Assembly (NCBI GenBank): GCA_020536535.1
Contig: JAHLWZ010000381.1
Span: forward strand, 63,001 to 98,323
Length of the DNA: 35,323 bases
Reading direction: 5' to 3'
Source: Pelomyxa schiedti
Taxonomy: Eukaryota > Protista > Evosea
Shown here: positions 8,959-35,280 of the stretch, in pieces
Layout of the letters: each line of letters begins with the position of its first letter
Numbering within the stretch: position 1 is the first letter of the stretch
The notes under the pieces: model-generated
Databases searched by the model: none
What the model saw: only the letters and a program-made list of their open reading frames with translations
What the model was told of the DNA's origin: nothing
Made by a program: the position numbers and the translations under genes

Positions 8959-10077
8959 TCATTCAGTTCGGGAGTTGAGAGCAATGTAGTTGAGAAGTTC
9001 AACTAAGAAATAAGAGAATTCAGGTGTGAAACCTTCAAGGGCAGAGAAGTCGGGAACTTGAAGGTAAAAGAGCAGGTCACCAGCAATTTCATTGGATGTC
9101 ACCGAGTCGCTACAGACAGTGAAGATGTACTGCAGTTGCTCTGGGGTGACAGAGGGGGTTGCCTGGAAGAAAACATAGGCCAGGTTGGCAATGTAGGCTG
9201 AACAAGCTGGAGTGTCATAGCTCGCAATGGTTATTCTGTGGAGCAAGAATGCCTCTTGTTGGTTAATGTTGTAAATGTAGGAAACTGATTGAGGGAGGGT
9301 TGGCTGCTGGTAAGGTTGAGTCTCGCCTACTGGTTGTGTCTCGACAGGCTGGGGTCCGTCTACTGCAACATTCGGTGTGTATTCGATTATGGTTTGTTCT
9401 TTGGGCAGTTCCTGCTGCTGTGGTATTTCACATCTTTCTGGTTGTGGTGGTTCACAGGTTTCGTTTTGTGTGGATTTGCTGGTGTCCTGTTGAGGTTGAT
9501 ATGATTCCTGCTGTGGTTGGTATGATTCCTGTTGTGGTTGGTTCCGCATCTGCTGTTGTGGTGGATGCATACACCCGGATTGCTGTGACAGTTCGGGTTC
9601 TTTTTCTGATAGATGTTGTGGTTTAAGAGGTGGTTGTGGCGGCTGAGATTGTTTTTGTGGTGGCGGAGATTGTCTTTGTGGCGGCGGAGATTGTCTTTGT
9701 GGCGGCGAAGCTTGTCGTTGTGGCGGCTGAGGTTGTCGTTGTGGTTGTAGCGGTTGCCGCTGTGGTGGCTCCAGTGATGGTTTTGGAGAAGTAGACATGG
9801 AAGGTACCTCGGGTGATAATACTTGTTGCTGTGGTGTTGTTTCTGAAGTTGCTCCTGTAGATTTATGTAGTGGATCACGGTTTTGATCTCCAAGTGTACT
9901 TGGCACGGCACGTTGCGGTGCCTCTGGGGTAGCTGGGAGTTTCGGAGGAGTGCGCTTTTTAGCCATTGCTGCGGCAAGAGCTGCTTCAGCTAGATCTCTT
10001 TGAATGGAGGGTACATTTGGTCTAGCCTGTGAAGTTGATGTCTTTGGCTTTGTGCGATCTACCCGAGATGTTAACAA
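8959..10077 (-). CDS. Pro/Gln-rich low-complexity protein (372-aa ORF) with a structured C-terminal segment. It may have an additional 5' exon near 10215-10400
   Basis: This is a long minus-strand ORF. It carries PPQRQSP heptad repeats and a QPQQESYQPQQESYQPQQ tract. The C-terminal roughly 110 aa are non-repetitive (EAFLLHRITIASYDTPACSAYIANLAYVFF...ELLNYIALNS). A possible upstream minus-strand exon encodes WEIEANLTREAAEDLRKLIISSSIEEYDLSGELPDK. Confidence 0.5.
   Translation of the reverse strand: MLTSRVDRTKPKTSTSQARPNVPSIQRDLAEAALAAAMAKKRTPPKLPATPEAPQRAVPSTLGDQNRDPLHKSTGATSETTPQQQVLSPEVPSMSTSPKPSLEPPQRQPLQPQRQPQPPQRQASPPQRQSPPPQRQSPPPQKQSQPPQPPLKPQHLSEKEPELSQQSGCMHPPQQQMRNQPQQESYQPQQESYQPQQDTSKSTQNETCEPPQPERCEIPQQQELPKEQTIIEYTPNVAVDGPQPVETQPVGETQPYQQPTLPQSVSYIYNINQQEAFLLHRITIASYDTPACSAYIANLAYVFFQATPSVTPEQLQYIFTVCSDSVTSNEIAGDLLFYLQVPDFSALEGFTPEFSYFLVELLNYIALNSRTE
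9640..9765. repeat. Six-unit 21-bp coding tandem repeat (consensus about tggcggcggagattgtctttgtgg on the + strand), encoding (P)PQRQSP heptads on the minus strand
   Basis: Units begin at about 9640, 9661, 9682, 9703, 9724 and 9745. They are read directly. Confidence 0.8.
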
Positions 10078-20056: not shown

Positions 20057-23000
20057 TCATGACATTTCATCAGCTTCAGCAGTAGCAGTTGAAGGCGTAA
20101 TAACCACAGAGAAATTCAGCTTTGAATTGACCACAGTGATGCTGACAGTAGACCTTTCTCGTAACTGCCCGCCAATGATCATCTTTGACACCTCTGTGAT
20201 GATGTGCTTCTCCAGGAACCTTCCAATTGGTCGGGCTCCAAACTGAGGTTCGTAGGCCTGCTCGATCACGAATCTCTTCGCGTCGTCTCCCATAACTAGC
20301 TTGATGTTCTGGTTCTCCAGCCTCTGCGAAATTCGTGTGACCATCAGCCCGACGATTTTCACCAAATCAGCTTGGGTCAGAGGGTTGAAAATCACAATGT
20401 TATCCAAGCGGTTCAGGAATTCTGCATACGTATTGGTAAGTACCGGTTTCTTTCTATTATAATAATAATAGTAATTGCTAGAGTGCGGACATACCGGGAC
20501 GGAACTGTTTTCGTACAAGAGTCATTACTTTCTCTTGAACTCCGACCAGCATTGTTCCATCCGGCCTGATGTTACTTAAGAGGAGGTCGGATCCAATATT
20601 CGAGGTCATGATGATAATGGTATTGCTGAAATCAACAGTTCTGCCGTGGCCATCAGTGAGACGTCCATCATCAAGAACTGGGCAATGTTAGCTGTGGATA
20701 CAAGAAAAGAGGCACTTCGCACCTTGAAGAAGCACATTCCAAACCTGCGTATGTGCCTTTTCAATCTCATCGAAGAGGACCACTGAGTAAGGCCTCCTTC
20801 TTACAGCTTCTGTGAGCTGGCCACCTTCTTCAAATCCAACATAACCTGGAGGAGACCCAATCAACCTTGCGACACTATGCTGTTCCATGTACTATTGCAT
20901 GATATCAGTGAAATTCCTTCATTAGCTTAGTTACACACCTCAGACATATCTATCCTAATCATATGTTTCTCATCATCGAAAAGTTCGTATGCCAGTGCTT
21001 TTGCCAGCTCTGTTTTCCCAACACCGGAGGGACCCAGAAACTAATGACTTGTTAGAAGATATGAAGTTATCCACTAATCTTACCATGAAGCTTCCTGTTG
21101 GTTTACCCACATTGCCAAGTCCAGCACGGGATCGGAGTACTGCTTCAGACACTGCGTCAACGGCTTCATTTTGTCCAACAACTCTTTTATGTAGTTGGTC
21201 TGAGAGTTGTAGCAAGCGTTCACGTTCTGTTTGGCTCAGTTTGGTCACAGGTATTCCAGTCCATCTGCTAACTACTTCAGCGATTTGCTCTGGTCCAACT
21301 ACTTCGGTGAGCATTCTATCCTTTTCAGTACGTTGAAGTTCTTCCGTGAGCTGTGAAAACATGTTAGATTTACCTTATTAGTGTCATATTAGATACCATT
21401 ACAACGCGCCTCTCGAGCTCTGGGATAGCCCCATACTGCAAGTCTGCAACCAAAGCTAGGTCTCCTCTTCTCTTTGCAGACTCCATTTTGTTTTTCAGTA
21501 CTTCAGCTTTCTGTTTCAACTCATTTATCTCCATAACCCTTGCTTTTTCTGCCTCATGTCTGGCCTTAAGCGGCATCAATTCTTCTCTGATCTTAGCCAG
21601 CTCTTCCCGGACTTTCTCTAGTCGTTGTTTACTTCCCACATCTTTCTCCTTCTCCAAAGCTGTGGCCTCAATTTCTAGTTGAAGTTGCTTCCTCTCCAAT
21701 TGGTCAATAACTTCTGGCTGGCTGTCCAACTGCACTCTTACACTGGCAGCTGCTTCATCAATCAAGTCGATGGCCTTGTCTGGGAGGAAACGATTTGTGA
21801 TATATCTTTGGGCCAGCTGTGCAGCAACAACAAGGGCACTATCCAGCAATCTTACACCATGATGAGTCTCGTATCGCTCTTTCAATCCACGTAGAATGCT
21901 GATTGTATCAGGGATGCTTGGCTCACCCACATAGACTTGTTGGAATCTTCTTTCGAAGGCTGCATCTTTCTCAACATGTTTGCGATATTCGTCCAGAGTC
22001 GTAGCACCAATGCAACGTAGTTCCCCTCTGGCACTGAAGAAAAAGTGAATTATTTATATGGAGAAACAGAGAAAAATGATGTGCATACAGCATGGGTTTG
22101 AGCAAGTTGGCGGCGTCCATGGAACCTTCTGCTTTTCCTGCACCCAAAACGAGGTGAATCTCATCAATGAACAAAATAATCCCAGTCTTGGACTCTGCTA
22201 TTTCCTTTAACACTGCCTTGAGTCTCTCTTCAAACTCTCCACGGTATTTTGCGCCAGCAACAAGTGCACCCTTTTTTAACCAAGGTTACGATAAGAAGGA
22301 AAAGAAAAGCTAAATACCATATCCAGGGCAATCACTTTGCAGTGTAGATCAGTAGGTATATCGCCGCGTACAATTCTTTGAGCCAGACCTTCCACGATTG
22401 CAGTCTTTCCTACACCAGGCTCACCAATAAGGACTGGATTATTCTTTGTCCTCCTGTTGAAGAAAAGGTTAAGCTGAAAACTGCAGGATTTTGTCAGGGG
22501 AGCCGTACCTTGCCAATATGCGAATGACACGTCTTATTTCATCATCTCTGCCGATCACAGGGTCCAGTTTTCCCTGTTCTGCCATAGCAACCAAATCGTG
22601 ACCATATTTTTCCAGAGCATTGTATGAGTCCTCTGGGTTTTGGCCATCAATTTTCCGTGTTCCTCGAGTCTGTGTGATCACTTTCTCCATCTGGTATTTT
22701 GACACTCCTGCGTCGCGCATAGCACCTCCAACGTCCTTGTTCTCGTAAAGAGCCACTGTATTTCCAAACGTGAGCGTTGGTTATGTGGTCATTTATATCT
22801 ACATATAAACAAACAACAAAACAAAAAAAGCAAAATGACACATACTCAAGAGGTGATCCACTGCCACGTGACTATCCTTTTGTCTAGTTTGAAGCTCCAA
22901 TGCCGCTCTCAGCACCGCCATCATCGGTCCCCCAGGTGACATCACTGAAGGTGGTGGATCCTGCCTTGGTTGTTTTTCCTATTTAAAGGAATCAGTGCAG

Positions 23001-23300
23001 ATATACACCAAAATGCCACGACATCTTTGACACATGACATCTTAACCAAAAAAAAAAAAAAACTCCATGACACGACCGACATCTACAAATACTTACCACT
23101 AGCCTCTTGATCACAGGGAGCAGGACGGCCGCGTCGCCGCCGGCTTTGGAGAACACCTGGCGCGCCAGGCCCGCCTCGTCCGAAAACAGAGCGAGGGCCA
23201 CGTGGGACGGGTGCAGCTCGGGGGCACTGTGCTCCAGCGCCATGCGCTGCGCCTTGCTGAGCGCCTCCGCGGCCTTGTCCGTGAACTGTGCGTTGTCCAT
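20057..23300 (-). CDS. Hsp104/Hsp101/ClpB-type AAA+ disaggregase, cytosolic type with no transit peptide, at least 11 exons. Resolved exons include 23300..23097, about 22977..22819, about 22756..22509, about 22454..22319, and a terminal exon about 20460..20057 (stop TGA at 20059..20057)
   Basis: Near-continuous similarity to Hsp101/ClpB. The N-domain reads [42 protein letters not shown]1 has [61 protein letters not shown] and [31 protein letters not shown]. The middle coiled-coil domain follows. NBD2 has [78 protein letters not shown] and [13 protein letters not shown]. Donors include GTAAGT, GTATGT and GTACGG. Confidence 0.9.
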
Positions 23301-23587: not shown

Positions 23588-24333
23588 CTAACTGCACAAG
23601 AGGTTCTTGAACTCCTCGAAGGTGAGAACACCATCACCATCAATGTCAGCGTCATTGAAGAGGTCCATGGCCGCTTCGTCTTCAAGGTGTTGTCCAAGGA
23701 ATGTGATGACCTGAGCGTGTGTGTTGATGGTTTTGTGATGTCAGAGAGGACAAGGCAAGGAGATTGGGGCAACCCGTTTCACCTTTTTGAATTCCTCCGC
23801 ATCGATTGTCCTGCTTCCATCCTTGTCAAAGAACTGTGTAGTAAATGGCACCAGAAAGGTTAAAAAAATAAAAAAAAAAAGTGAGTGTGTTGTTGTGATA
23901 TGGTGATATGATGAGGGAAGTGAAGGGGAAGACTAGCCGCACGCACATCAAAGGCCTGCTTGATGGCCAGCTCAGTGTTGGTGTTTGAAATTTTGTCCCT
24001 CATCACGTTGATGAAACTCTCATATGTCAGTTTCCCTTTTTCTGTGACTGAGTTAGTGTTGTAATGCAGTGTCATCTCTCGAACAACCATCCAGCATCGC
24101 TCTGATGTCCCTCGACGACGGGTCCTGTGCTTTTGTTTGTTTTTTTTGATTCAGTCAGGGGTTGACGTGGCATGAATTTGTATGCCACACAAAAGGTACA
24201 CACCAAAGGAGCGCATCAGCTTTGTGAGCTCCTCGGCATCGAGCCTGTCGTCCCCATCCTCGTCAAACAAATCAAATGCCTCTGTGAGCTCCTCGAGTTG
24301 TTCAGCCAGCACCTCGTCTTTCGTTGACGTCAT
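23588..24333 (-). CDS. Calmodulin-like / caltractin-like EF-hand Ca2+-binding protein, 4 exons (about 24333..24205, about 24090..23950, about 23826..23785, about 23720..23588)
   Basis: Exon 1 is MTSTKDEVLAEQLEELTEAFDLFDEDGDDRLDAEELTKLMRS, an EF-hand loop DEDGDDRLDAEE, with donor GTGTGT. Exon 2 is ...EKGKLTYESFINVMRDKISNTNTELAIKQAFD. Exon 3 is FDKDGSRTIDAEEFKK, an EF loop, with donor GTGAAA. Exon 4 is HAQVITFLGQHLEDEAAMDLFNDADIDGDGVLTFEEFKNLLCS*, an EF loop DIDGDGVLTFEE. Confidence 0.75.
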
Positions 24334-24580
24334 TGTTGTCAGCAGCTGCTGTTAGGGTTGGTGGTCTGTTTACTACCGGCGAATCTGGGGCCTGGGACTT
24401 TTTTTTACCAGAGCTTGTCCGTTTGCACCAAACGAGGGAAAAAAACACAACCACACGCCGGGTTCGTTTTGGGGGTGATGTTGTGTCAAAAGTGGAACCT
24501 TTACTGTTTCTCGGTAGTGCAACGGACACACGTTTAAGAGACCAAAAGAAAGCAAAACCCAACAAAAAAAAAACAGCCGT
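24334..24580. promoter_or_regulatory. 247-bp divergent intergenic region between the calmodulin-like gene (minus, ATG at 24333) and the giant NACHT gene (plus, ATG at 24581). It is presumed to hold a bidirectional promoter and 5' UTRs
   Basis: This follows from the positions of the two start codons. The region has an A-rich tract immediately upstream of the + ATG (aacaaaaaaaaaacagccgtATG) and a T-run at about 24400. No specific motif is claimed. Confidence 0.4.
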
Positions 24581-27130
24581 ATGAGCTCCACAGCACCAGG
24601 AGATGGGGGGGCTCACGCTACCTCCACAACGTCCACTGCTGAAAGGTCTTCCTCCTCATCAAGTCATCACCACAGCAGTTCCCACAGAGACAAAGCAGAA
24701 CCAAGTGCCCCACAAGAGTCTCGCGCGAAGCGAGTGCAAAACGTGACATCAGGAGCACAACTGGTAGCAGCACTGGCATACAACCGAGAGAAACTCGTCG
24801 AGGACAGGTTCAGCAAGCTACAGGGTTTCGTGGCTGCTGAGCACCAGAGGGCCGCCGAGCAACCGCCGCCCCCCACGGGAAGCGGGACTGCCCCAACTCC
24901 AGCTCCTGAAGGCAAAGTGGAGGTGAAGAAGAAGAACATACTCAGAAGGATGTTTGACACCGCCAAGTCCTTCGTCTCGGAGTATCTGCCAGAGACCACG
25001 TCCAAAGCTGTTCTGGGTGCGAAAGTTGCTCTGGAAGAGTCGGACGCCGATGAACAGTTCAGGTGTTCCCTGATCATCAACGACAAGGTAGGCCAAAGGG
25101 CACTTCAGAGCCTGGCAATCAAGATGATCGACAACTTCCTTTCAACACCGAGCAAGACTCCTGCCCTCATCCGCGAAATCGTGCAGCTTGCGAGGGTGGA
25201 CGACAGGGAGGTGGTCCAGATGCTGGTGACGGCACTCGCGAACACCATCGACCAGAACGTGCTGTTCGACGTTCCGATGATCGAGGGACTGGCGGAGGTT
25301 CTCTTCCAGTGCTCGTCGCGCCACATTCCGGTGGAGAACCTCGTCGTGATCTATCGAATGCTCATCGCGAAGATCGAGACACTTCACTCGCAACAGCAGA
25401 ACGCAGACAGGGTGTTTCAGATACTCAAGGGGTTCAACAAGCTGCTCCGAGCGATGTGGGCATCGGGCGTGAGGGGTCTCGACGAGGAGGACAAGAAGAA
25501 GTCGCTCGGGATCCTCCAGGCGATGAAGGACCGATACGCGAATTACAAGAGCCTCGAGTGTTACGTCGCCGCAGAGGCCGAAGTTGCCAAGCAGAATCTT
25601 CAGCGAATTCAAGATGACGGTGATCCCCTCGCCGACGTCGCCGCGCGTCTTGGTCACGCATACATGGCCGTCGGCGCAATTGCAAATCTGGCCATGCAAT
25701 ACGACATCAGAGAGGTTTTCAACTGTGTCTCCGAGCTGAAGGAGTGCGTTGCCGACATTTACATCAAGAAGTCGTGGATGGATGTTCTATTCTTCATTGA
25801 CTTGATGTTGTGGCAGCTCACTGTCGGTTCGAAGGAACTCAAACCGATGCCGCCAGAGGAACAGGAGAGACTCAAGAGCACGATCGAACGTCTTTACTCC
25901 AAATCCAGGAAAGTTGGGCTTCGCCAAGCTGAAGGCCTGAGCAAAGACGTAACCGCTGCTGAGGAAGGAGAGAAATCGTTTTGGCGTAATATTGGCGACA
26001 GTGTGAAAAGAAAACTAAGTGAGGTCAAAGCTCAGTTTGGTGCTATCATTGAAGGTGAACATGACTTCAGCCTTGGATACGTCAATCTCCTCGACAACGT
26101 AATCAAGGCCGAACCGCTCCTCGACAACATCGACATGAAGAACTGGGCATTGGCGCAGCTCAAGGGAATTCTTGTTGGTGAGGATTATCGCGAGAGCACC
26201 CTGATGAAGTTCTTCAACTCGGAGGTTGGATTGATGATGGTGGTCATCAGCAAGCTTCGTGAGTATTCAACGATGCCTCCTCCAATCGGAAACACTGCAT
26301 GGAAGATCCTGGGAGAAGTAATGGAGGTCATCCAAACGGAGGAGGCAAAAAACCAGTCAAACAGAGACATCAAGAACAAGATCGACTTTAGTTTGGCGTG
26401 CTACCCTCTGAGTAGCCAGTTGGAGAGTCCGTGCTCCGAGCTTCGTCGCCCCCGGCTGGTTTACATTTCAGATAAGGAACAATGGTGGTACATCATGCCC
26501 AAAGCAACACCAGAACGCATCCTCCTTTCCACTCTTCCTCCACCACGCCCAAAAGAGCAACCAACTGCAGAGGTGATCAGTTGTTTCGATGACAAGTTGA
26601 TCAAGAGCGAGGCAAATTTCTCAGCACAGGCAAAGGCACTCTTGAGTCCGTTCAAGCTCAACTTCCTGTTTTTCATGAAAACCCACCCATCTCCTCCCAC
26701 GCAGCCGGGGGCCTTTGCTAATATCCACCCAATTTTCCAGTTCAAGATGTTGATTCCACCAACGAAACCACAAACCGTGCCACTGGAAGACACTTTGTGC
26801 ACAGCAGAGTTATTCATGAAAGCCAAGGCGGAGGTGTTGGCAACACTGAAAGACTCTGTTGATGATCAGGTGGTGGACCTGAGAAAACGTACTTTGGAGG
26901 ACCCACAGCTCGAGAGTCTGCTCAAAACATATGTTGAGAGCGATTGCAGGGAGGGCATCCTCGATAAGTCTGCACAATCATTGACTGGCACCCTGTTCAA
27001 GAAGTTCCTGAAACTGGAACGACCAACCACGTCCCAGTCTCATCGCCATCACAGTGGGAGGTCTCATTCCTCCTCTTCCTCCTCATCATCGTCATCCTCA
27101 AAAACTGAGACAACAACCACAACAGCCCCA
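24581..27130 (+). other. N-terminal approximately 830-aa region of the giant protein with no recognisable domain. Its position suggests an effector or signalling module
   Basis: It begins with Ser/Thr/His-rich low complexity, MSSTAPGDGGAHATSTTSTAERSSSSSSHHHSSSH. A long, predicted mostly alpha-helical region follows (LQSLAIKMIDNFL..., VVQMLVTALANTIDQNVLFDVPMIEGLAEVLFQCSS...). A poly-Ser linker (SSSSSSSSSSKTETTTTT) sits immediately before the Walker A. Confidence 0.5.
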
Positions 27131-30100
27131 CCACCAACCAAAACACTTGTCCTTGTTGGTTCAGGAGGAACTGGAAAATCAATATTCGGGCACTTTGTGG
27201 AGAAACTCCTGTGGGAGTCGTATGACAGGTGCCACGTCATCCCGATCTTCATCTCACTTGCAACAATCAAGAACCCAAGCAAGAACCTGTTCGAGAAGAC
27301 ATTGACATCGCTTGGGTTCTCGCAGAGCAACATCGACGAGATCAAGGAAGGGAGGCGTGTGTTGTTCATCCTCGATGGTTATGACGAGATCACCCTCGAG
27401 GTTGGTGTGAACATCTGCCAGGCCAACAAACTTTGTGACTGGAAACACTCTCAGGTCTTGGTGTCCAGCAGGCCTGAGAAGATTGGGCAAGATTTCTTCC
27501 AGAGTTTCTGTTGCCTTGGTGGTGGTGGTTCCAGCAGCAAACCTGGAAAACATGCTGCGACAACCACAGCAGCCTCCTCAGGAAACAAAACGGCAGGAGG
27601 AAGTTCTGGTGTTCCTCTTGGAAAGTCGTCCACAGTCACCACCAAACAGGTTGCCGAGCAGCCCGAAGTTCTGTGCTGGTATATCGAACCATTCACGAGG
27701 CACAAGATCGAGAAATACGTCAAGAAGTACAAAAAGTGCGGAGGATCACAAGGCGAGAGGAGCGCGGAACTGTTCAACCAACACAGGGAACTCCTGAAAG
27801 GTGTGGAGGAGCTGCTGAGGACTCCGTTCATCCTCACAATGTTCATGGAAATCCTTCCCACCCTCGTCGACAAAATGGAGCAGGACAGGAGCAGGAGGAG
27901 GTTCGACGACTCGAACATCAGCAACAGTTCATCCGCATTGTCGATGGAGCTATCATCGAACCTGACGAGGCTTGAACTTTACGACAGGTTCGTGGAACAG
28001 TGGTTCCAGAGGCAAAAGTCGAAGATCACACCAGAGAGGATGGCACAGTGCACTCAGCACCTCACCGACGACGTCGAGGAGGTCAAGTTCAACTTCCAGG
28101 TTGGTGGTGACATCATCGAGGACTTCAGGTCGTTCTCCGAGAACCTCGCGATCTTCATGTTCACGAAGGGAGCGACAGCACTTCAATACAGTCCCGTGTG
28201 GACACTGAACAGCCAGGGTGTCGAGGTGATCGATCAGAACAACCCACTCGAGAGGTTCTTCAGCCCCACGAACAGGAGCACCCAACTCGTCCTGTCTGGG
28301 TGTCCTGTTCAGAAGAAGGGAGCCAACACGTTCATGTTCCTCCACAAGTCGCTTCAGGAATACTTCATTGCTTACAAGATTTACAAGGAGATCCAACTCT
28401 GTTCCAGCATGCCATTCTCGAACTTTCCGCAAGTGAAGTGCAGGGAGACAATAAAGTTCACACAGAGCAGCTACAAGGAGACAACCCGTCAGATTGTGAG
28501 TGCGATTGTTGAGGAAATAGCTGAAAGGGTTGAGTCAAAGTGGTTGCCAGCAACTGAAAGCGATGATGAACCCACCCAGTTCTTCCGAATCATGATGGGT
28601 CCCTTTGCCGAAGTTGATAAATATGAATGTGAGGAAATTACAGAGATTTTTGTGGATTTCAAAGACCATTTCCTTGCGATGACGGATCCTCCTCCTCTTG
28701 AACTGGCTGAGGTTTCAAACGACAAGCACAAGTTGGAACACCGGCGCGGAATGAGATTGGACTGGCTACCTCAGAGCAGGGACAAAAAATGGACATGTAA
28801 TATTTGCGGCAGTGTGGGCGATTTGGAGAATCCCGACGACGAGTATTGGCACTGTGGCAAATGCGACTTGGACCTGTGCAAAAACTGTATTTCGAAGTTC
28901 CGTGTGTTGCCACCAAGCAAGAGCACACCAAGTGAAAACAACTCGGGCACAACAGCACCAGTTATCAGCAACACCTCTGGAGACAAAGAAGCTATGCCTG
29001 AAAAGCAACAAACAGCACCAGCCCCAAAAATTTCTACTGACAAGGCTGCAACCACATCCACTGTGCCTGTTACCTCCAGTGCTGTTGTATCAGAAGAACA
29101 ACAGGAGGCAAATTTCCAGAGACTCAGAGGACTGTTGGATAAGATCTTTTTTATTGTTGGGGAGAGGCGGCGTCTTGACAAATTGATGAATAAAATAAAA
29201 GAGGCACACTCCCGTCGTCAAGCACAATCTTCTCAGGGATGCTCTTTTGACAAGGAAAAAGTCATAGCTGACATCCTGCACAGTATGGACTTGCTTAGGC
29301 ACAGCGTGAAAGAGGCTTGTGATTCTGTTCTCTCGCACACACGGAAGGCCGAGTTGCACCTTGAAGAAGAAGAGGTCGACTACACAATCACAAAAAACAA
29401 CTTCAGACCAAGTTTGGGAGTTGTGATCGACATTCGAAGGAGGCTGAGGAAGATGCAAGCTGCAAAAGAGAAGGGAAAAAGAACAAAGGTTGTGAAGTAT
29501 CCAAAAGAGCTTGTTGTGAACCAGTCCTCTCTTGTAAAAGTCCACGATGTTGTAAGCTTTTTGTTGGAGATGATGAGGAGGGATGATTCCTTGGCAACAA
29601 CAGAAGATGCGAATAACAAGGACACATTCAGTCTGCGAAACGCACTCCTCCTCCTCATTGAGAATTCAAAGTGGACAAACAGAAAAATTGAAGGGGGCTC
29701 AACAGAAATCAATAGCAGCAACAAAATGAGGATTCACAGAGCTGACAGGGCTGCATCAACTGCGATGATGCTTCTTCTTCAAGGAAAACACAACTTCTCC
29801 AACGTGGATTTGAGGCACATCCACATCAACGGTGCAGACCTGAGTGGTGGAATATTTGGTGGTGCCAGTTTGGTGAAGGCTGACTTGAGTGACTGCAAAA
29901 TGCAGCAGGTGTGGCTCAGTGGAGCTGACTTGGCACACTGCGACATGACAGGTGTGAGCTTCAACGAGAGGGTTGCCTTCGATTTTGGTGTTGGTCTCGC
30001 GTGCGTTGATGTTTCTGCTGACGGGAAGAGGCTTTGTGCATGCCCACGCAACAAAGGTCACCCACTGTTGTGCGATATCACTGACGAGGACCACGAACTT

Positions 30101-33100
30101 AAGGAAATCGGCCCCGAGGTTCAGTGCAATCAGTGCAAGTTCTCTCCAAATGGGAAGAAAATATGCTTTGTTATGTCTGGAGATCAGTCTGTGTTGGTTC
30201 TGGAGACTCATGGCAACACCTGGTTCAACGTTGTGTTGCCAAAATCTACAGTTCTCATGGATGGGAAAAAAGAAAACCCCTCTGCAACAGCCAAGCCCTC
30301 GGCAACAACCAAGATTAGTGGAATGTCCACAGCTGTGCCCAACGCGTCGTCTTCTGCCACAATCAAAAGCATTTGCTTCTCCGCTGATTCCTCCGTTCTC
30401 GCCATTTCCGTTTCCAAAGAACGCCGGGATGCTTTTGACACATTCATATATTCCCTGACCTCTGCCGCTGCCACTCCAACCACAACATCGACTCCCCCTT
30501 CTTCTGCCTTGCAACAACCAGCGGCAGTAGCAGCAGCAGCACCGGAGAGCCCAAAAACCACAGGAACAGAAGCAGTCCTGCCACAACATACACTCAACGA
30601 CTGTGTTGGTCACTTTTTCATCAAGTCTTCTCTTTTGGTGACACAAAACGCCCCCAATAGCCCCCACTCTTGGTGGGAGGTTCCCGCTGCCGAAAAAACC
30701 GGTGCTGCCACGAGCACACCGCCGCCGCCAAAAGATCCACCAACCAACATTGGGAGCGACATTTCGATGTTTGCATTGTCACCAACAAGAAACAAACTTG
30801 CTGGATTCTCCCAAAAAACAGGAAAGGTGACGGTGTGGGAGTTCTCTGAGAAGAACTTGCGCTCATTCCACGTTCTTTTTGAGCACCAAGTCAGTGATCC
30901 ACAGGGTGGATTCTCCAAACTCTCTGTCCTCTCTTTCTCACCCAAAGGGACATGGCTTCTTGCTGGGACACAGTTGCTGCACGTCGAGACCCAGAGTGTG
31001 AACTGCGACGTGGCACAAAAGTGCTTCTTCACTGGTGAAGACACACTTGGTTACTTGGGAGACTCCCAGATTTATGAGGTCAAAGCTTCGTCTGGGAACA
31101 TGCGGGTCACTGAGAGTTGGCCTTGCCGTTGTGTTGCTGCTTGCAGATCCAAAGTTCTTATAGTCACGAGGAGACCAGCAGAACCAAAGGAAACTGCCGA
31201 ATCGGAGAAAACGAGTGCCGCTTCTTCCTCTGGGAGCAATCCACCACAAGAAGAACACGCAAACGACTCATCCAAGTGGGTTATTGTGCATGAGATGTGG
31301 ACAAGTGATGGGATCAAACAGTTACCACTTCCAAATGACTTCGACGAGGCAAACAAGAAGAATCTGCGTCCTTGTTTCTCGTCTGATGGGAAGTACGTCG
31401 CTGGGTGTGATGCCTCGACCTTATTCTTGTGGGATTTGAGCAGTGGCACCATGGTCAAACACAACAACACACTCACTGACTTTGAGTTCAAGGCTTGGTC
31501 GTTCTTCCCGGCAAAGGAAGGTGAACCTGTGAAGTTCGGTGTTGCTCTCACAAGAAAGCAAGTTGAAGATGATGCAAAAGAAAAAGAAAAGGAAGATGAT
31601 GGTGACAGTAAAGAGAGTGAGGATAATCATGAAGACAAAGACAATGACAAAGACGAAGACGAAGACCAAGCCAAAGATAAAGACGAAGATGAAGATGAAG
31701 ATGAGGATGAAGATGAGGACGAGAGTGAGAATGAGTATGAGAGTGAAGATGAGTCAATTTCAGAAATTCAGGAGGGCAAGTTTTTCTGTGAGAAAGACAT
31801 TCCAAAAGACCCCAATAATATTTTCTGTGTGTGGAAAGTGATGGGTGTAGATCCTTGTGAGGCTGTGGAGGAAAATGATGACACTCGAGATTCAGTCGTT
31901 TCAACACCGGGTTTAATCTTGGAGGAGCCAATCAGACTTCCACTGGGAAGAGCTATTTGGGACACCGTCGTTGTGTCTCCATCTTGGAAATCAGTGATAC
32001 TCCTGGTCACCAACCCCTACAAGGCTAACTTCATGGTTATCATTGACCAAGAGGCACATACAATCACAGGAACGTTGTCGCTTCTCTCGCCCGTTTTTAT
32101 TTTCCCAGGAATTACAACCGAGAGATCGCAAAGCACTTCAATTTTCGAATGCAGTCCCGACTTCGATCCCCACAGAAAGTTGCTAAAAGAAAAGGCCGAT
32201 CAAGTGCTTGCCGCAAAAGGTTGTGCGCCAGCCAGTGAAGATCGACAATATTTGTCCTTGCAGGGAGACACTTTGGTTGGCCTGGACCTGAACCTGTTTG
32301 GATCTATTACTCTCTTGGAGGAACTGGACCTGGAGAATGACAAAGACGCAAAGACAATTGATGAACTGGAGAGTTCTTCCAAGAATGAATATGGTATCTT
32401 CGAACGAAGCATGGGTGCCACTGTCCAAAGTGGCCCATGGTGCCTGTTGTTGCAGAGTGAAGTGGCAGCCATCGCCACAACCAAGTCAACGATTGTACTC
32501 TGGAAATTGGCCAGGCCAAAGAAGTGCTTCCTCACGTTGGGTCCCTTTTCAGGACACATATTCTCCGTTACAGCATCTGGTGACAACATGCTTGTTGTTG
32601 TTGCTGGAAGGGACATCCACTACATTCGTGTGGAAAGAAGGCCTGATGGTGATGGGTTCGTTGCAACATTGGTTCACAGAACAGGCCACACGATGCAGCC
32701 TCTCGTTGCTGCTCATGCAAACGTGCAAACAGTCAAAGGCCTGAGTGTGGAAAACAAAAGCCTTCTGAAGTCGCGTGCAATCATTGGAGCAATCAAAATC
32801 GAGAGGGAGTTCGATACCAAGGTTGTTCGACCACAGGTGGAAAAACTGAAATCGAAAGTGTGGACTTCAGCACAAAGCAAACCAAAGCAGATGCCCAAGT
32901 TCCTGGGTTTGTTCTTCTCGAATTATTCAAATCCAAGAAGCAATAAGTGCACGGCGGACCTTGCAGACAAGTATGAATCTCTCATTCAAGAACAACCAAA
33001 GAACACGTTCGCTATCATTGAGATCTCCTGTGATCGCTCCGCGAGATTGTACAAGACAAACGCACGAAAGGATATCAATGGATGGTCACATCTCCAGTTT

Positions 33101-35280
33101 GACGAAAGGGAATTGCAAGAGACTCTCGTGGATCTGTTTGATGTCACTCCATGTACGTCCCTCTCTTCTTCTTTTCTCGTTTTTTACTTTTGTTTCCTTT
33201 TTCTCTTCAAACAGCTGAACCCACAATCGTGGTTCTGAACCAACAAGGGGAGATGGTTTCCAAACATTCGGTTCATGTTCTCTTCAAAGAATTTGCCCAC
33301 CTCAAGTTCCCATGGTCAGTCGAATCTGTCAAGTGGGTGAAGTTTGAGTCACACAAACATCCTCTCGAGTTGTTGTCAACTCCAGAGTTCGTTTGTTCAA
33401 AATGTAACGAGGGTGGATCGGGATTGGCATATCACTGCCATTTGGACAGTCAGGACTTCCATCCACGGTGCACATCAGGTCCCTCTGAGTTGCCGGAATG
33501 GATCTTTTACAAAGGTCATGAGCACCCAGTTCGTCTGGACCAGAAGAGTTCTCCCCCCGAATATCACTGCAAGAAGTGCTCGCACGATGTTGAGCTCAAA
33601 GATTGCCTCAAACTGAAAAAGATTGATCCGCCACCAAAACCAATATTCTCATGGAGCATGTTTGACGGACATGAAACACCACTCCAGTTGGTATTCAAGA
33701 GCGGCTCTTATCAGTGTGCGCAATGCAAAGCAACAAAAGAAGGGGACTGGGTTTATCACTGTCCCAAGAGTAACCTTGACCGCGAGCCTTCCTGCCTCGG
33801 TGATCCCCACCCGTTGTCCAAATGGCTGAAGCTTGAATATCACCCCCACCCTGTCAAACTCACTGAGAAATCGCCAGTGAGCTGGAGTGATCTGCAGTGT
33901 AGTATATGCAGGAAACGTTGCACCAAGTGGTATTACACCTGCCCCGACTGTGAAAAGTTCTGCGTGGAAGTTGAATGCACTCTGACACAACCCTGTGAGG
34001 CACTTCCTGATCCCGTGGTGGAACCAAACAACTGGAAGAAATTCCCCAAAGACCCACACCCATTGAAAATGGTGTTCATGAAGGACTTCCAGTGTTGCCA
34101 GTGCGAGAAACCGGGATCATGTTGGGCACTCGAGTGCAAAGTGTGCAAACCGGAAGGTGTTTATTTCCACCCACAGTGTGCTGGAGAGCCTCGTGAACTC
34201 CCAAAGTTGGTCCTCGAATCAGGTGACTCGGCACACCCTCATCCACTTGCCTTGAAGTCGTCTGAATATGGTGGTACATGTGACAAATGTGGTGATGACA
34301 TCGAAGATACAGAGCAATTTTATTATTGCAAGCTCGATGGCCATTGCCTTCATTTGAAATGTTGTCTGTCAGCCACAGAACTTCCCGACGTCGAGGGGAA
34401 GCCACTGACGTGGAAGAAGTGCAACCAAGACACACACCCAGTGCAGCTGGTCCTGAGCAGCGGCGAGTTCACGTGCCACCACTGCAACAAGCCAAAACCG
34501 GGACCCGCGTGGGCGTACAGGTGCCACACCGAGAACGTTTTCTTCCACGTCGAGTGCCTCGAGAACCCGCAGAACCCGCAGAGGTGGATCATCCTCAACA
34601 GCAAGCACAAGCACCCGCTCCAGTTCGGCAAGAACCCAGGGTTCCTCAAACCCAAGTGCTGTGTGTGCAACAGCGACGGCGACATGGATGCGCAGGTGTA
34701 CGTCTACTTCTGCGAGAGCTGCAACGACTGGTGCCACGTCAAGTGCATGGAAGGGTGCGTGCCGCCGCCGCCGTTGATCAAGATCAAGAAGCACCAGCAC
34801 CCCCTGGCGTTCGTGGAGGCGGCCCCGCCCAAGCCAGAGGGCGCCGACGACGACAACAACATCGACGGCGACAGCGACGACGAGCGCGCGGCCGCCGCGC
34901 AGTGCGACACGTGCTACGGCGAGATCGCCGGGGAGCAGCACTACAAGTGCACAAAGTGCCCCGCTGTAAGGCACATCGGGTGCTGCTCCAAGCCCCAGGC
35001 GTTCGACCCCCTCGCCCCCGTCGGTGACGACGAAGACAGTAGCAGAAAGGGGAAGACAAAGGCCGATGCAGACAGTGACGACAGCGACGATGACAGCGAC
35101 GACGATGACGAGGACCACGGGTCTCAAGAGCAGTTTTTACTAGCGGCAAAGATGCGCGCCATAGAAGCCAGATATGCAACTTCCCAACATCTCCATGGCC
35201 ACCAGGCTGAAGACTCCAAGGCAGACAAAGGTAAAGACAAGGCCGAGGATGAAGCCGACTCCAGTGCCAGTGACGACTGA
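24581..35280 (+). CDS. Giant NACHT-family STAND NTPase (NLR-like) with pentapeptide repeats, a WD40-like beta-propeller, an acidic tract and nine C-terminal tandem DC1-like zinc fingers. CDS is join(24581..33152, 33215..35280), about 3,545 aa, with a single 62-nt phase-1 intron (GTACGT...ttcaaacag)
   Basis: Exon 1 is an 8.57-kb uninterrupted ORF. It contains Walker A LVLVGSGGTGKS (about 27150-27185), Walker B RVLFILDGYDEI (about 27361-27396), a sensor-like SSRP, LRTPFILTMFMEI, and the NACHT winged-helix motif FLHKSLQEYFIAYKI (about 28331-28375). The donor GTACGT at 33153 and the acceptor after a 45-nt pyrimidine-rich tract (ag at 33213-33214) join in frame (...LFDVTP-S-EPTIVVLNQ...) to a 2.07-kb ORF of DC1-like repeats, ending at TGA 35278..35280. 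If unspliced, the reading frame ends 28 codons after the donor in pyrimidine-tract sequence (LSSSFLVFYFCFLFLF). Confidence 0.8.
27130..28380 (+). other. NACHT NTPase domain of the giant protein
   Basis: GSGGTGKS (P-loop), hhhhDGYDE (Walker B with the NACHT-typical acidic pair), LVSSRP, the GxP-like RTPFILTMF and FLHKSLQEYFIA are all present, in canonical NACHT order and spacing. Confidence 0.85.
28788..28890 (+). other. Internal DC1-like / C1-like Cys-His zinc finger
   Basis: WTCNICGSVGDLENPDDEYWHCGKCDLDLCKNC has the pattern C-x2-C-x14-H-C-x2-C-D-L-D-L-C-x2-C. This resembles the DC1 core (Y-x-C-x2-C-d-f-d-L-H-x2-C). Confidence 0.55.
29790..29965 (+). other. Pentapeptide-repeat block of about 11 tandem A(D/N)LxX units
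   Basis: HNFSNVDLRHIHINGADLSGGIFGGASLVKADLSDCKMQQVWLSGADLAHCDMTGVSFNE shows A[DN]L / xDLxx periodicity every 5 residues. Confidence 0.8.
30060..32700 (+). other. WD40-like beta-propeller region, divergent repeats, interrupted by a poly-Asp/Glu tract at about 31560..31760
   Basis: WD-like strands recur: VQCNQCKFSPNGKKICFVMSGDQSVLVLE, IKSICFSADSSVLAISVS, ISMFALSPTRNKLAGFSQKTGKVTVWEF, LSVLSFSPKGTWLLAGT, NLRPCFSSDGKYVAGCDASTLFLWDL, HIFSVTASGDNMLVVVAGRDIHYIRV. The acidic insertion reads DDGDSKESEDNHEDKDNDKDEDEDQAKDKDEDEDEDEDEDEDESENEYESEDE. Confidence 0.6.
31560..31760 (+). repeat. GAN/GAY triplet-repeat tract, (gaa/gac/gat/gag)n, encoding the poly-D/E insertion
   Basis: gacgaagacgaagaccaagccaaagataaagacgaagatgaagatgaagatgaggatgaagatgaggacgagagtgagaatgag is read directly. 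Confidence 0.8.
33340..35000 (+). other. Nine tandem DC1-like (divergent C1, Cys/His-rich) zinc-finger repeats at the C-terminus of the giant protein
   Basis: Each unit has H-x-H-P-(L/V)-x-(L/F) followed by C-x2-C ... (Y/W)-x-C-x2-C ... H/C-x-x-C. Examples: HKHPLELLSTPEFVCSKCNEGGSGLAYHCHLDSQDFHPRC; HPHPVKLTEK...CSICRKRCTKWYYTCPDCEKFCVEVEC; HKHPLQFGKN...CCVCNSDGDMDAQVYVYFCESCNDWCHVKC; HQHPLAFVEA...CDTCYGEIAGEQHYKCTKCPAVRHIGC. GC3 rises markedly across the last three units. Confidence 0.7.

What the first reader, a model, noticed from the sequence alone, without database searches (positions are those of the whole stretch)
33140..33230. A single 62-nt phase-1 intron fuses the NACHT/WD40 exon to the DC1 array
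The 8.57-kb frame meets a consensus donor, CCAT|GTACGT, at 33153. A 45-nt pyrimidine-rich stretch follows and ends ...ttcaaacag|CTGAACCC. Splicing there keeps the frame (…DLFDVTP-S-EPTIVVLNQQGEM…) into a 2.07-kb ORF that otherwise has no convincing start. Its ORF-track Met at 33151 overlaps the donor and is followed by the hydrophobic pyrimidine-tract translation. Without splicing, exon 1 reads on into LSSSFLVFYFCFLFLF and stops. The intron looks like the other introns in this window (GT-AG, 47-107 nt).
Basis: seen in the sequence. Interest (0 to 1): 0.6.

Follow-up and report, generated by a model that had tools for sequence, protein, structure and literature searches.

The report
Real intron inside giant amoeba gene
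The 62-base stretch is almost certainly an ordinary spliceosomal intron in a Pelomyxa schiedti gene; removing it rejoins the two halves of a thioredoxin-like domain and links a giant NACHT protein to its zinc-finger tail, which is correct gene annotation rather than new biology.

Summary
Positions 33153..33214 are 62 nt, GTACGT...AAACAG, phase 1. Removing them joins ORF 24581..33152 to 33215..35280 as one 3545-aa reading frame.

The window is from Pelomyxa schiedti. My 10-intron rebuild of the neighbouring Hsp104 gene is letter-for-letter KAH3763495.1.

Frame-keeping alone is weak evidence, because 88 GT/GC-AG pairs nearby also keep the frame. The strong evidence is elsewhere:
- The intron sits inside a tryparedoxin/nucleoredoxin-like Thioredoxin_8 domain. 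The Pfam match grows from profile 2-80 (36.7 bits) to 2-93 of 94 (about 46 bits) only with this splice pair, the best of ten pairs tested.
- The spliced peptide aligns with tryparedoxin II (1i5g) straight through the junction.
- A P. schiedti paralogue, KAH3759832.1, carries the identical junction peptide DVTPSEPTIVVLN. Both halves of the domain are about 90% conserved, against 74% overall.
- The 62 nt are the most T-rich stretch in the 10.7-kb gene.

No RNA evidence could be reached. The intron differs from its neighbours: 82% pyrimidine and a distant branch motif.

Low interest.

The parts
24581..33152 (+). Exon 1 coding part: 8572 nt, 2857 codons plus the first base of the split Ser codon. 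Encodes an ARM-like region, NACHT, a ZZ/DC1-like finger, pentapeptide repeats, propeller-like repeats and the first ~85 residues of a thioredoxin-like domain.
   Evidence: ORF list and translation. Pfam: ARM_5 169-390; NACHT 855-939 (27.7 bits, cut-off 26.7); C1_2 1392-1437 (weak); Pentapeptide 1738-1776; weak WD40-type matches 2050-2310; Thioredoxin_8 2773-2856.
27143..27397 (+). NACHT NTPase core (residues 855-939), with Walker A GSGGTGKS and Walker B-like LFILDGYDE.
   Evidence: Pfam PF05729 27.7 bits against cut-off 26.7. Motifs read in the translation. The only outside relative of this module is a Gigaspora margarita NACHT+pentapeptide protein, 26% identity, E 3.6e-20.
32897..33315 (+). 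Tryparedoxin/nucleoredoxin-like Thioredoxin_8 domain, interrupted by the intron. Residues 2773-2857 lie in exon 1, Ser2858 is split, and residues 2859 to about 2891 (up to the FPW motif) lie in exon 2. The CPPC redox site reads NPRS.
   Evidence: Pfam 45.7-46.4 bits, profile 2-93 of 94, only when spliced. phmmer alignment to tryparedoxin II 1i5g residues 26-142 across the junction. 90.6% and 89.6% identity to the paralogue in the two halves, with no gaps.
33153..33214 (+). The intron: 62 nt, phase 1, GT-AG, 82% pyrimidine, 35% GC.
   Evidence: Sequence. Compositional extreme of the gene. Donor and acceptor scores lie inside the range of ten verified introns. Best Thioredoxin_8 score among ten alternative pairs.
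33153..33158 (+). 5' splice site GTACGT, preceded by CAT.
   Evidence: 5.6 bits on a PWM built from ten Hsp104 donors; leave-one-out range of those donors is 0.8-8.2; rank 19 of 617 GT sites in the gene.
33183..33187 (+). Only YTNAY branch-point candidate (TTTAC). The branch A at 33186 is 28 nt from the 3' end. Inferred, not shown.
   Evidence: Motif scan. All ten verified introns have a YTNAY at 10-21 nt, so this assignment is tentative.
33188..33214 (+). Polypyrimidine tract and 3' splice site (...CTCTTCAAACAG). The last 25 nt before the AG are 84% pyrimidine.
   Evidence: Acceptor PWM 4.2 bits, rank 26 of 826 AG sites in the gene.
33215..35280 (+). Exon 2 coding part: 2066 nt including the stop at 35278-35280. 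Encodes the end of the thioredoxin-like domain, nine DC1-type zinc-finger modules and an acidic tail.
   Evidence: Translation. Pfam C1_2 111.2 bits, 6 stretches. Nine H-x-H-P-[LV] ... C-x2-C ... H-x2-C modules counted by eye.
33349..34990 (+). DC1 (C1_2) array; coordinates approximate.
   Evidence: Pfam. 75.6% identity to the paralogue over this span. Nearest outside relatives are DC1-array and Thioredoxin_8+DC1 proteins.

Best explanation
Positions 33153..33214 are a genuine U2-type GT-AG spliceosomal intron in a protein-coding gene of the anaerobic amoeba Pelomyxa schiedti.

The intron is phase 1. It lies inside a redox-inactive tryparedoxin/nucleoredoxin-like thioredoxin-fold domain, immediately before the conserved cis-proline strand (E-P-T-IVVL, aligned to I-P-T-LV in tryparedoxin).

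The spliceosome would recognise GTACGT, probably a branch A in TTTAC 28 nt upstream of the 3' end, and a long pyrimidine tract ending in CAG. It would then join T|CT into a Ser codon.

The mature mRNA encodes one 3545-aa STAND-type protein. Its order is: ARM-like N-terminus, NACHT NTPase, ZZ/DC1-like finger, pentapeptide repeats, propeller-like repeats, thioredoxin-like pseudo-enzyme domain, nine DC1 zinc fingers, acidic tail.

Shown here: the coordinates, the frame, the composition, domain completion across the junction, and the same junction peptide in an annotated paralogue.

Inferred: that splicing actually occurs in vivo, which nucleotide is the branch point, and the biological role of the protein. 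A signalling or sensor NTPase whose C-terminal nucleoredoxin-derived module binds a ligand or partner, rather than doing redox chemistry, is the most likely role.
For: - Exact arithmetic of the splice gives a 3545-aa open frame.
- Pfam Thioredoxin_8 covers profile 2-80 of 94 at 36.7 bits for the read-through product. It covers 2-93 of 94 at 45.7 bits (46.4 bits for the shorter test peptide) for the spliced product.
- The nine other frame-keeping splice pairs tested give 18.4-41.6 bits.
- phmmer against PDB: the spliced peptide aligns with Crithidia tryparedoxin II 1i5g residues 26-142 of 144 (E 6.8e-5) with a single one-residue gap at the junction. FDVTPSEPTIVVL matches FDVK-SIPTLVGV, and the C-terminal FPW motif is conserved.
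- The window is P. schiedti: my Hsp104 reconstruction equals KAH3763495.1 exactly.
- P. schiedti genes average 7.43 introns, 98.4% of them GT-AG (PMC8887013).
- The paralogue KAH3759832.1 (Pelo_8394, on another contig) is annotated as one protein reading ...LVDLFDVTPSEPTIVVLNQSGEMV..., with 1490 residues before the exon-2 equivalent.
- The thioredoxin-like domain is the best-conserved segment between the two genes, and equally so on both sides of the junction: 90.6% and 89.6%, no gaps, against 74% overall.
- The 62 nt are the T-richest and pyrimidine-richest 62-mer of the 10.7-kb gene.
- Length, GC content and splice-site scores fall within those of ten verified introns 10 kb away.
- Thioredoxin_8 followed by DC1 recurs in unrelated proteins: P0154, and P0141, which is a single uninterrupted ORF.
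Against: - No transcript data could be reached, so splicing itself is not observed.
- The exact 3545-aa product is not in the 15-billion-protein collection. The public model for this locus is therefore either different or not retrievable here.
- The paralogue's junction comes from an Augustus/PASA/EVM model, not necessarily from a sequenced cDNA. Its DNA could not be fetched.
- Splice-signal scores are good but not unique in the gene: donor rank 19 of 617, acceptor rank 26 of 826.
- The intron lacks the YTNAY motif 10-21 nt before the AG that all ten Hsp104 introns have. It is also more pyrimidine-rich than any of them.
- The translation from ORF2's ATG (MYVPLFFFSRFLLLFPFSLQTA) superficially resembles a signal peptide.
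Confidence: 0.9

Rival explanations
1. No splicing occurs and there are two genes. The NACHT protein ends at 33238 after a 28-residue hydrophobic tail. A separate DC1-array protein starts at ATG 33151 with a signal-peptide-like N-terminus, MYVPLFFFSRFLLLFPFSLQTA.
For: - Both ORFs exist as listed.
- The ORF2 N-terminus is hydrophobic and begins with Met.
- No RNA evidence for splicing was available.
- The exact spliced product was not found in the protein collection.
Against: - This reading would cut a thioredoxin-fold domain in two. ORF1 would keep profile positions 2-80. ORF2 would start with the remaining strand and helix behind a pyrimidine-tract 'signal peptide'.
- The paralogue is annotated as one protein with the identical junction peptide.
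- The two ORFs overlap by 88 nt, which leaves no room for a promoter or a 3' end.
- There is no AATAAA or ATTAAA on the + strand from 29200 to the end of the window. This is weak evidence, since the local poly(A) signal is unknown.
- The hydrophobic peptide is what any T/C-rich tract encodes.
Confidence: 0.04
2. The intron is real but inefficiently or conditionally removed. When it is retained, the product is a NACHT-propeller protein with a truncated thioredoxin-like domain and no DC1 array, or an NMD target. The intron would then act as a switch between two isoforms.
For: - The intron is atypical for its neighbourhood: 82% pyrimidine, and its only YTNAY is 28 nt from the 3' end against 10-21 nt in ten of ten neighbouring introns.
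- Retention meets a stop after only 28 codons.
Against: - Nothing here measures splicing efficiency.
- A retained-intron product would carry an incomplete fold, which is more likely to be degraded than to function.
- The paralogue's annotated product is the spliced form.
- A distal branch point plus a strong pyrimidine tract is a normal U2-type arrangement in many eukaryotes (general knowledge).
Confidence: 0.08
3. The 62 nt are an assembly or amplification artefact, or a recent insertion in a decaying pseudogene copy. The genome came from single-cell whole-genome amplification. The reading frame would only seem to be rescued by splicing.
For: - The assembly derives from multiple-displacement-amplified single cells (PMC8887013).
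- The gene has a paralogue, so one copy could be decaying.
Against: - The insert has exact GT...AG ends, and its removal restores a conserved domain to the residue.
- 10.6 kb of open frame on both sides argues against a pseudogene.
- The paralogue's protein implies the same exon junction.
- No copy of the 62 nt (k of 12 or more) exists elsewhere in the window.
Confidence: 0.02

Closest known systems
Ordinary U2-type GT-AG introns of Pelomyxa schiedti, e.g. the ten introns of the Hsp104 gene KAH3763495.1 in this same window
   Same: GT-AG ends. GTAnGT-type donor. Length of 62 nt against 43-118 nt. Low GC of 35% against 28-49%. Any phase is used. The genome is intron-rich, with 7.43 introns per gene and 98.4% GT-AG (PMC8887013).
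   Different: 82% pyrimidine against 43-69%. The only YTNAY motif is 28 nt from the 3' end, against 10-21 nt in all ten. It is the only intron needed in a 10.6-kb CDS, whereas Hsp104 has ten in 2.6 kb.
KAH3759832.1, hypothetical protein Pelo_8394 (Pelomyxa schiedti): a paralogue on another contig
   Same: 74% identity over residues 1338-3519. Identical junction peptide LVDLFDVTPSEPTIVVLN. Same order of pentapeptide, propeller-like, thioredoxin-like and DC1-array regions.
   Different: The public model is 2183 aa. It starts at the equivalent of our residue 1154 and skips 151 residues, so it lacks the ARM-like and NACHT parts. This is probably a truncated model. Its DNA and exon structure could not be retrieved.
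Nucleoredoxin / tryparedoxin (Pfam Thioredoxin_8; e.g. Crithidia tryparedoxin II, PDB 1i5g; plant nucleoredoxins with a C-terminal DC1 domain)
   Same: Thioredoxin_8 fold aligned end to end, including the cis-Pro strand and the C-terminal FPW. It is followed by a DC1 zinc finger, as in nucleoredoxin-type proteins P0154 and P0141. That plant NRX1 has this architecture is from my own knowledge.
   Different: The WCPPC redox motif is N-P-R-S here, so both catalytic cysteines are absent (alignment). The domain is most likely not an oxidoreductase. It sits at the C-terminal end of a 2850-residue NACHT protein and is followed by nine DC1 modules rather than one.
NACHT + pentapeptide-repeat proteins (e.g. 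Gigaspora margarita 44440_t, P0159)
   Same: NACHT NTPase followed by pentapeptide repeats. 26% identity over 86% of the 468-aa NACHT-module query, E 3.6e-20.
   Different: The fungal protein is 792 aa. It has no ARM-like N-terminus, propeller region, thioredoxin-like domain or DC1 array.
DC1-array proteins (Pfam C1_2, mostly from plants)
   Same: Tandem DC1 modules with the H-x-H-P-L ... C-x2-C ... H-x2-C pattern. The best outside hits of exon 2 carry 9-16 C1_2 repeats.
   Different: Those proteins are stand-alone arrays, or are fused to jacalin, IQ or PEARLI-4 domains. None of those scanned carries a NACHT domain.

Membership tests
U2-type GT-AG spliceosomal intron | GT at the 5' end and AG at the 3' end | tested here: met
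   GTACGT at 33153-33158 and CAG at 33212-33214.
U2-type GT-AG spliceosomal intron | Splice-site context and length like verified introns of the same genome | tested here: met
   Donor 5.6 bits and acceptor 4.2 bits, against leave-one-out ranges of 0.8-8.2 and -1.6 to 11.6 for ten Hsp104 introns. Length 62 nt against 43-118 nt. The PWM rests on only ten introns.
U2-type GT-AG spliceosomal intron | Branch-point motif (YTNAY) at the distance used locally | tested here: inconclusive
   The only YTNAY is TTTAC, with its A 28 nt from the 3' end. All ten neighbouring introns have one at 10-21 nt. This is compatible with U2-type introns in general but atypical here.
U2-type GT-AG spliceosomal intron | Removal restores a continuous, homologous coding sequence | tested here: met
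   3545-aa open frame. Thioredoxin_8 completed to profile 2-93 of 94. Alignment to 1i5g runs through the junction. Identical junction peptide in the paralogue.
U2-type GT-AG spliceosomal intron | Spliced transcripts observed | not testable with these tools
   No RNA-seq or transcript collection for P. schiedti was reachable. Protein and contig look-ups for this locus returned nothing.
Thioredoxin_8 (tryparedoxin/nucleoredoxin-like) domain | Pfam PF13905 match above the gathering score over the whole profile | tested here: met
   45.7-46.4 bits against a cut-off of 27, profile 2-93 of 94, for the spliced product.
Thioredoxin_8 (tryparedoxin/nucleoredoxin-like) domain | CxxC (WCPPC) redox-active site | tested here: not met
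   In the alignment to 1i5g the motif positions read N-P-R-S. The paralogue has the same NPRS. It is a fold member but probably catalytically dead.
Thioredoxin_8 (tryparedoxin/nucleoredoxin-like) domain | cis-Pro strand following the third helix | tested here: met
   S-E-P-T-IVVL aligns to S-I-P-T-LVGV of 1i5g. This strand is encoded by exon 2.
Nucleoredoxin-type architecture | Thioredoxin_8 domain followed C-terminally by a DC1 (C1_2) finger in the same polypeptide | tested here: met
   In the spliced peptide, Thioredoxin_8 covers residues 33-130 and C1_2 covers 163-203. The same order is seen in P0154 and P0141. This depends on the splice being real.
DC1 / C1_2 domain array | Pfam PF03107 above the gathering score, in several copies | tested here: met
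   111.2 bits against a cut-off of 26, with 6 stretches. Nine modules counted by eye in the translation.
NACHT (STAND) NTPase | Pfam PF05729 above the gathering score, with Walker A and Walker B motifs | tested here: met
   27.7 bits against a cut-off of 26.7, covering profile 2-95 of 167 only. GSGGTGKS and LFILDGYDE are seen in the translation. The match is marginal. It is supported by the Gigaspora NACHT+pentapeptide relative.
WD40 propeller | Pfam WD40-type match above the gathering score | tested here: not met
   All WD40, PD40 and propeller matches in residues 2050-2310 are below their cut-offs, e.g. WD40 at 20.1 bits against 27. A propeller is plausible but not shown.

The most novel reading that the evidence does not exclude
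The 62-nt intron may be more than a neutral interruption. It is unusually pyrimidine-rich and has a distal branch point. It could be a regulated, inefficiently spliced switch that decides whether this giant NACHT protein carries its nucleoredoxin-derived TRX-DC1 sensor/effector tail. The gene would belong to a lineage-specific family of STAND receptors in Archamoebae that has co-opted a redox-dead nucleoredoxin module, an architecture not described for NACHT proteins.
Probability: 0.07. Interest if true: 0.45.

Novelty: new member of a known kind. Interest (0 to 1): 0.18.

Why it matters
The main value is correct annotation. With the intron removed, the locus is one 3545-aa gene rather than a truncated NACHT protein plus an orphan 'secreted' DC1 protein.

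It also shows that the C-terminal module is a nucleoredoxin-like unit (thioredoxin fold plus DC1 fingers) with its redox cysteines lost, attached to a STAND NTPase. That is a modestly unusual domain combination in an anaerobic amoeba, and of some interest to people cataloguing NLR-like proteins outside animals, plants and fungi.

The intron itself is ordinary. The genome is already public and annotated, and a paralogue's public protein already carries the same junction.

Tried and rejected
- Word-indexed homologue search with the 475-aa spliced junction peptide found nothing. That index also missed the 100%-identical P. schiedti Hsp104 and the paralogue. It evidently does not reach these NCBI eukaryotic proteins, so its silence is uninformative.
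- Exact look-ups found none of these in the collection: the spliced 3545-aa product, the unspliced ORF1 product, ORF2 from ATG 33151, and ORF2 from the first downstream Met.
Exon 2 alone was used instead.
- Contig look-ups for the paralogue P0121 and for Hsp104 P0158 returned nothing. I could therefore read neither the public exon coordinates of this locus nor the paralogue's DNA.
- A related eukaryote contig found through Hsp104 (L001, Logan SRR24390609) is not syntenic and gave no orthologue of this gene.
- A codon-usage log-odds test did not discriminate. The read-through frame scored z = +0.25. I rejected it as uninformative for a T-rich tract.
- An automatic intron finder on tblastn HSPs gave ambiguous or empty answers. 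The Hsp104 introns were instead read by hand and verified by the exact protein match.
- A single-sequence AlphaFold2 model of the paralogue's TRX-DC1 segment had mean pLDDT 33.5. It was useless, so no fold search was run.
- There are no tRNA or Rfam matches and no relevant tandem repeat at the site. No copy of the intron occurs elsewhere in the window. It is therefore not a repeat element or an RNA gene.
Full report
**Observation**

The sequence is exactly as described.
- ORF1 runs 24581..33238 and ORF2 runs 33151..35280, on the + strand in different frames.
- cat|GTACGT places the first intron base at 33153. ...ttcaaacag|ctgaaccc places the last at 33214.
- The interval is 62 nt (T34, C17, A6, G5).
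- 33153-24581 = 8572 = 3x2857+1, so the intron is phase 1. The split codon T|CT encodes Ser.
- The joined CDS (24581-33152 plus 33215-35280) is 10638 nt, 3545 codons, with no internal stop. It reads ...DLFDVTP-S-EPTIVVLNQQGEM....
- Unspliced, ORF1 continues as CTSLSSSFLVFYFCFLFLFKQLNPQSWF and then stops.
- ORF2's ATG overlaps the donor and is followed by MYVPLFFFSRFLLLFPFSLQTA.

**Is it more than chance?**

Frame-keeping is weak evidence on its own. Between 33000 and 33500, 88 GT/GC-AG pairs join the two frames without a stop.

Splice signals are also only moderately informative. I scored them with a small matrix built from ten verified introns of the same window.
- The donor scores 5.6 bits, rank 19 of 617 GT sites in the gene.
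- The acceptor scores 4.2 bits, rank 26 of 826 AG sites.
- Both fall inside the leave-one-out range of the real introns, but neither is unique.

Two things single the interval out.
- It is the compositional extreme of the whole 10.7-kb gene. T is 55% against 21.7 +/- 7.1% for 62-nt windows, and it is the only place with T at or above 45%.
- Removing it does something specific to the encoded protein, described next.

**The intron cuts a thioredoxin-fold domain**

Pfam finds a Thioredoxin_8 (tryparedoxin/nucleoredoxin-type) match at the very end of exon 1. It stops at profile position 80 of 94, exactly at the exon end.
- The read-through product scores 36.7 bits over profile 2-80.
- The spliced product scores 45.7 bits over profile 2-93.

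I then scored ten alternative frame-keeping splice pairs.
- The proposed pair is the best, at 46.4 bits over profile 2-93.
- The runner-up scores 41.6 bits but needs a 23-nt 'intron', which is shorter than any of the ten verified introns here (43 nt and up).
- All the others score 18-37 bits and do not complete the domain.

Against the PDB, the spliced peptide aligns with Crithidia tryparedoxin II (1i5g) over residues 26-142 of 144.
- There is a single one-residue gap at the junction: FDVTPSEPTIVVL.NQQGEMV against FDVK-SIPTLVGVEADSGNII.
- The conserved C-terminal FPW is present.
- The cis-proline strand of the fold is therefore encoded by exon 2 and the rest by exon 1.

The same alignment shows the WCPPC redox motif replaced by N-P-R-S. 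The domain is most likely catalytically inactive.

**Organism and local intron model**

A ClpB/Hsp104 gene lies on the minus strand at 23300..20057.
- I reconstructed ten introns by hand: 23096-22979, 22845-22756, 22508-22454, 22317-22271, 22088-22034, 21396-21351, 21083-21041, 20938-20892, 20722-20678 and 20494-20422.
- They are 43-118 nt, and all are GT-AG.
- The resulting 874-aa protein is letter-for-letter KAH3763495.1, 'heat shock protein [Pelomyxa schiedti]'.

The window is therefore Pelomyxa schiedti (Archamoebae), and these ten introns agree with the public annotation.

The genome paper reports 7.43 introns per gene, 98.4% GT-AG, and gene models from Augustus refined by PASA/EVM with single-cell transcriptomes (PMC8887013).

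The candidate compares with the ten introns as follows.
- It fits in length, in GT-AG ends and in GC content (35% against 28-49%).
- It is more pyrimidine-rich: 82% against 43-69%.
- Its only YTNAY motif (TTTAC) has the branch A 28 nt from the 3' end. All ten Hsp104 introns have one at 10-21 nt.

This is a real difference from its neighbours. It is still a normal U2-type layout: a distal branch point followed by a strong pyrimidine tract.

**Related sequences**

I ran an exhaustive HMMER search with exon 2 against 1.84 billion representative proteins. It gave one strong hit, P0121 (E = 0, 80% identity), with the query matching residues 1491-2090 of a 2183-aa protein.
- P0121 is KAH3759832.1, hypothetical protein Pelo_8394 of P. 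schiedti. It lies on a different contig, so it is a paralogue.
- It aligns with my spliced protein over residues 1338-3519 at 74% identity.
- It reads ...ERELQETLVDLFDVTPSEPTIVVLNQSGEMV..., the same junction peptide.
- The thioredoxin-like domain is the best-conserved segment of the alignment, equally on both sides of the junction: 90.6% in the exon-1 half and 89.6% in the exon-2 half, with no gaps. Both halves are therefore under the same constraint.

Weaker hits are DC1-array proteins with 9-16 C1_2 repeats.
- Two of them (P0154, P0141) carry Thioredoxin_8 followed by C1_2.
- In P0141 this is a single uninterrupted ORF from a metagenome.
- The TRX-then-DC1 order created by the splice is thus a recurrent, nucleoredoxin-type architecture.

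The NACHT module has only one detectable outside relative. It is a Gigaspora margarita NACHT+pentapeptide protein with 26% identity and E 3.6e-20.

**What the gene is**

The spliced product is a 3545-aa STAND-type protein. Its parts, in order:
- ARM-like region, residues 169-390.
- NACHT, residues 855-939. It passes its cut-off only marginally (27.7 against 26.7 bits). Walker A GSGGTGKS and Walker B-like LFILDGYDE are present.
- A ZZ/DC1-like finger, residues 1392-1437.
- Pentapeptide repeats, residues about 1737-1795.
- A long region with sub-threshold WD40-type matches.
- An acidic low-complexity stretch.
- The thioredoxin-like domain, residues 2773 to about 2891.
- Nine DC1 modules.
- An acidic tail.

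The gene start at 24581 lies about 245 nt from a small EF-hand-like gene on the opposite strand.

**Rivals**

1. Two separate genes without splicing. This would split a conserved fold and make a 'signal peptide' out of a pyrimidine tract. It would also leave an 88-nt overlap with no room for a promoter or a 3' end. It contradicts the paralogue's one-protein model. No AATAAA or ATTAAA occurs on the + strand after 29200, which is weak evidence. I give it about 4%.

2. Regulated retention. This is not excluded, because nothing here measures splicing. The atypical branch and pyrimidine layout is the only hint. I give it about 8%.

3. Assembly artefact or pseudogene. The exact GT...AG ends, the residue-exact domain restoration and 10.6 kb of open frame argue against it. 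I give it about 2%.

**What could not be done**

- No transcript evidence was reachable.
- The public exon coordinates for this locus and the paralogue's DNA could not be retrieved.
- The exact 3545-aa product is not in the protein collection. The deposited model for this locus may therefore differ from mine.
- A single-sequence AlphaFold model was useless, with mean pLDDT 33.5.

**Verdict**

There is one useful correction: the intron lies inside a nucleoredoxin/tryparedoxin-like domain, not between domain blocks.

It is an ordinary spliceosomal intron in an intron-rich, already sequenced and annotated amoeba. Its value is correct gene structure. The domain combination (a NACHT NTPase with a redox-dead TRX-DC1 tail) is mildly unusual but is not a new kind of system. 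Interest is low.

Noticed in passing
window 20057..23300, minus strand: Complete ClpB/Hsp104 gene with ten short GT-AG introns (43-118 nt). My reconstruction is identical to KAH3763495.1 of Pelomyxa schiedti, which identifies the organism of the window.
   Followed up: yes
window 24581..35280 compared with 20057..23300: The 10.6-kb NACHT-DC1 coding sequence needs only one intron. The neighbouring 2.6-kb Hsp104 CDS has ten, and the genome average is 7.43 per gene. This gene is therefore strikingly intron-poor, and the 8.57-kb first exon is unusually long for this genome. Not explained.
   Followed up: partly
window ~24200..24335, minus strand: A small EF-hand-like ORF (MTSTKDEVLAEQLEELTEAFDLFDEDGDDRLDAEELTKLMRSFGV...) starts about 245 nt from the NACHT gene's ATG on the opposite strand. 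The two form a compact divergent gene pair.
   Followed up: no
paralogue P0121 (KAH3759832.1) against window residues 1154-1186 and 1338 onward: The paralogue's first 33 residues are 100% identical to this gene's residues 1154-1186. The alignment then jumps to residue 1338 and continues at 74% identity. The skipped 151 residues include the NACHT winged-helix motif FLHKSLQEYF. The public model looks 5'-truncated or mis-spliced, or the two copies have undergone local gene conversion.
   Followed up: partly
window 32930..32960 (residues ~2785-2795): The thioredoxin-like domain has N-P-R-S where tryparedoxins have C-P-P-C. The paralogue has the same change. This is a conserved pseudo-enzyme version of the fold.
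   Followed up: partly
window 33183..33214: The intron's only YTNAY motif (TTTAC) is 28 nt from the 3' end. It is followed by an 84%-pyrimidine tract. All ten Hsp104 introns have a YTNAY at 10-21 nt and weaker tracts.
   Followed up: partly
window ~7350..8882, plus strand: Exons of a glycoside hydrolase family 3 (beta-glucosidase-like) gene, judged from the ORF translations only.
   Followed up: no
window 8959..10077, minus strand (repeats at 9485..9769): A proline/glutamine-rich ORF containing 21-nt tandem repeats that encode PPQRQ-type units.
   Followed up: no
window 31629..31753: GAAGAC/GAAGAT-type tandem repeats encode the long Asp/Glu run inside exon 1. This segment is almost unalignable with the paralogue (9.8% identity).
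   Followed up: partly
tool behaviour: The word-indexed protein search returned neither the 100%-identical P. schiedti Hsp104 nor the roughly 90%-identical paralogue segment, although both are in the collection. Negative results from that tool for this organism should not be trusted.
   Followed up: yes
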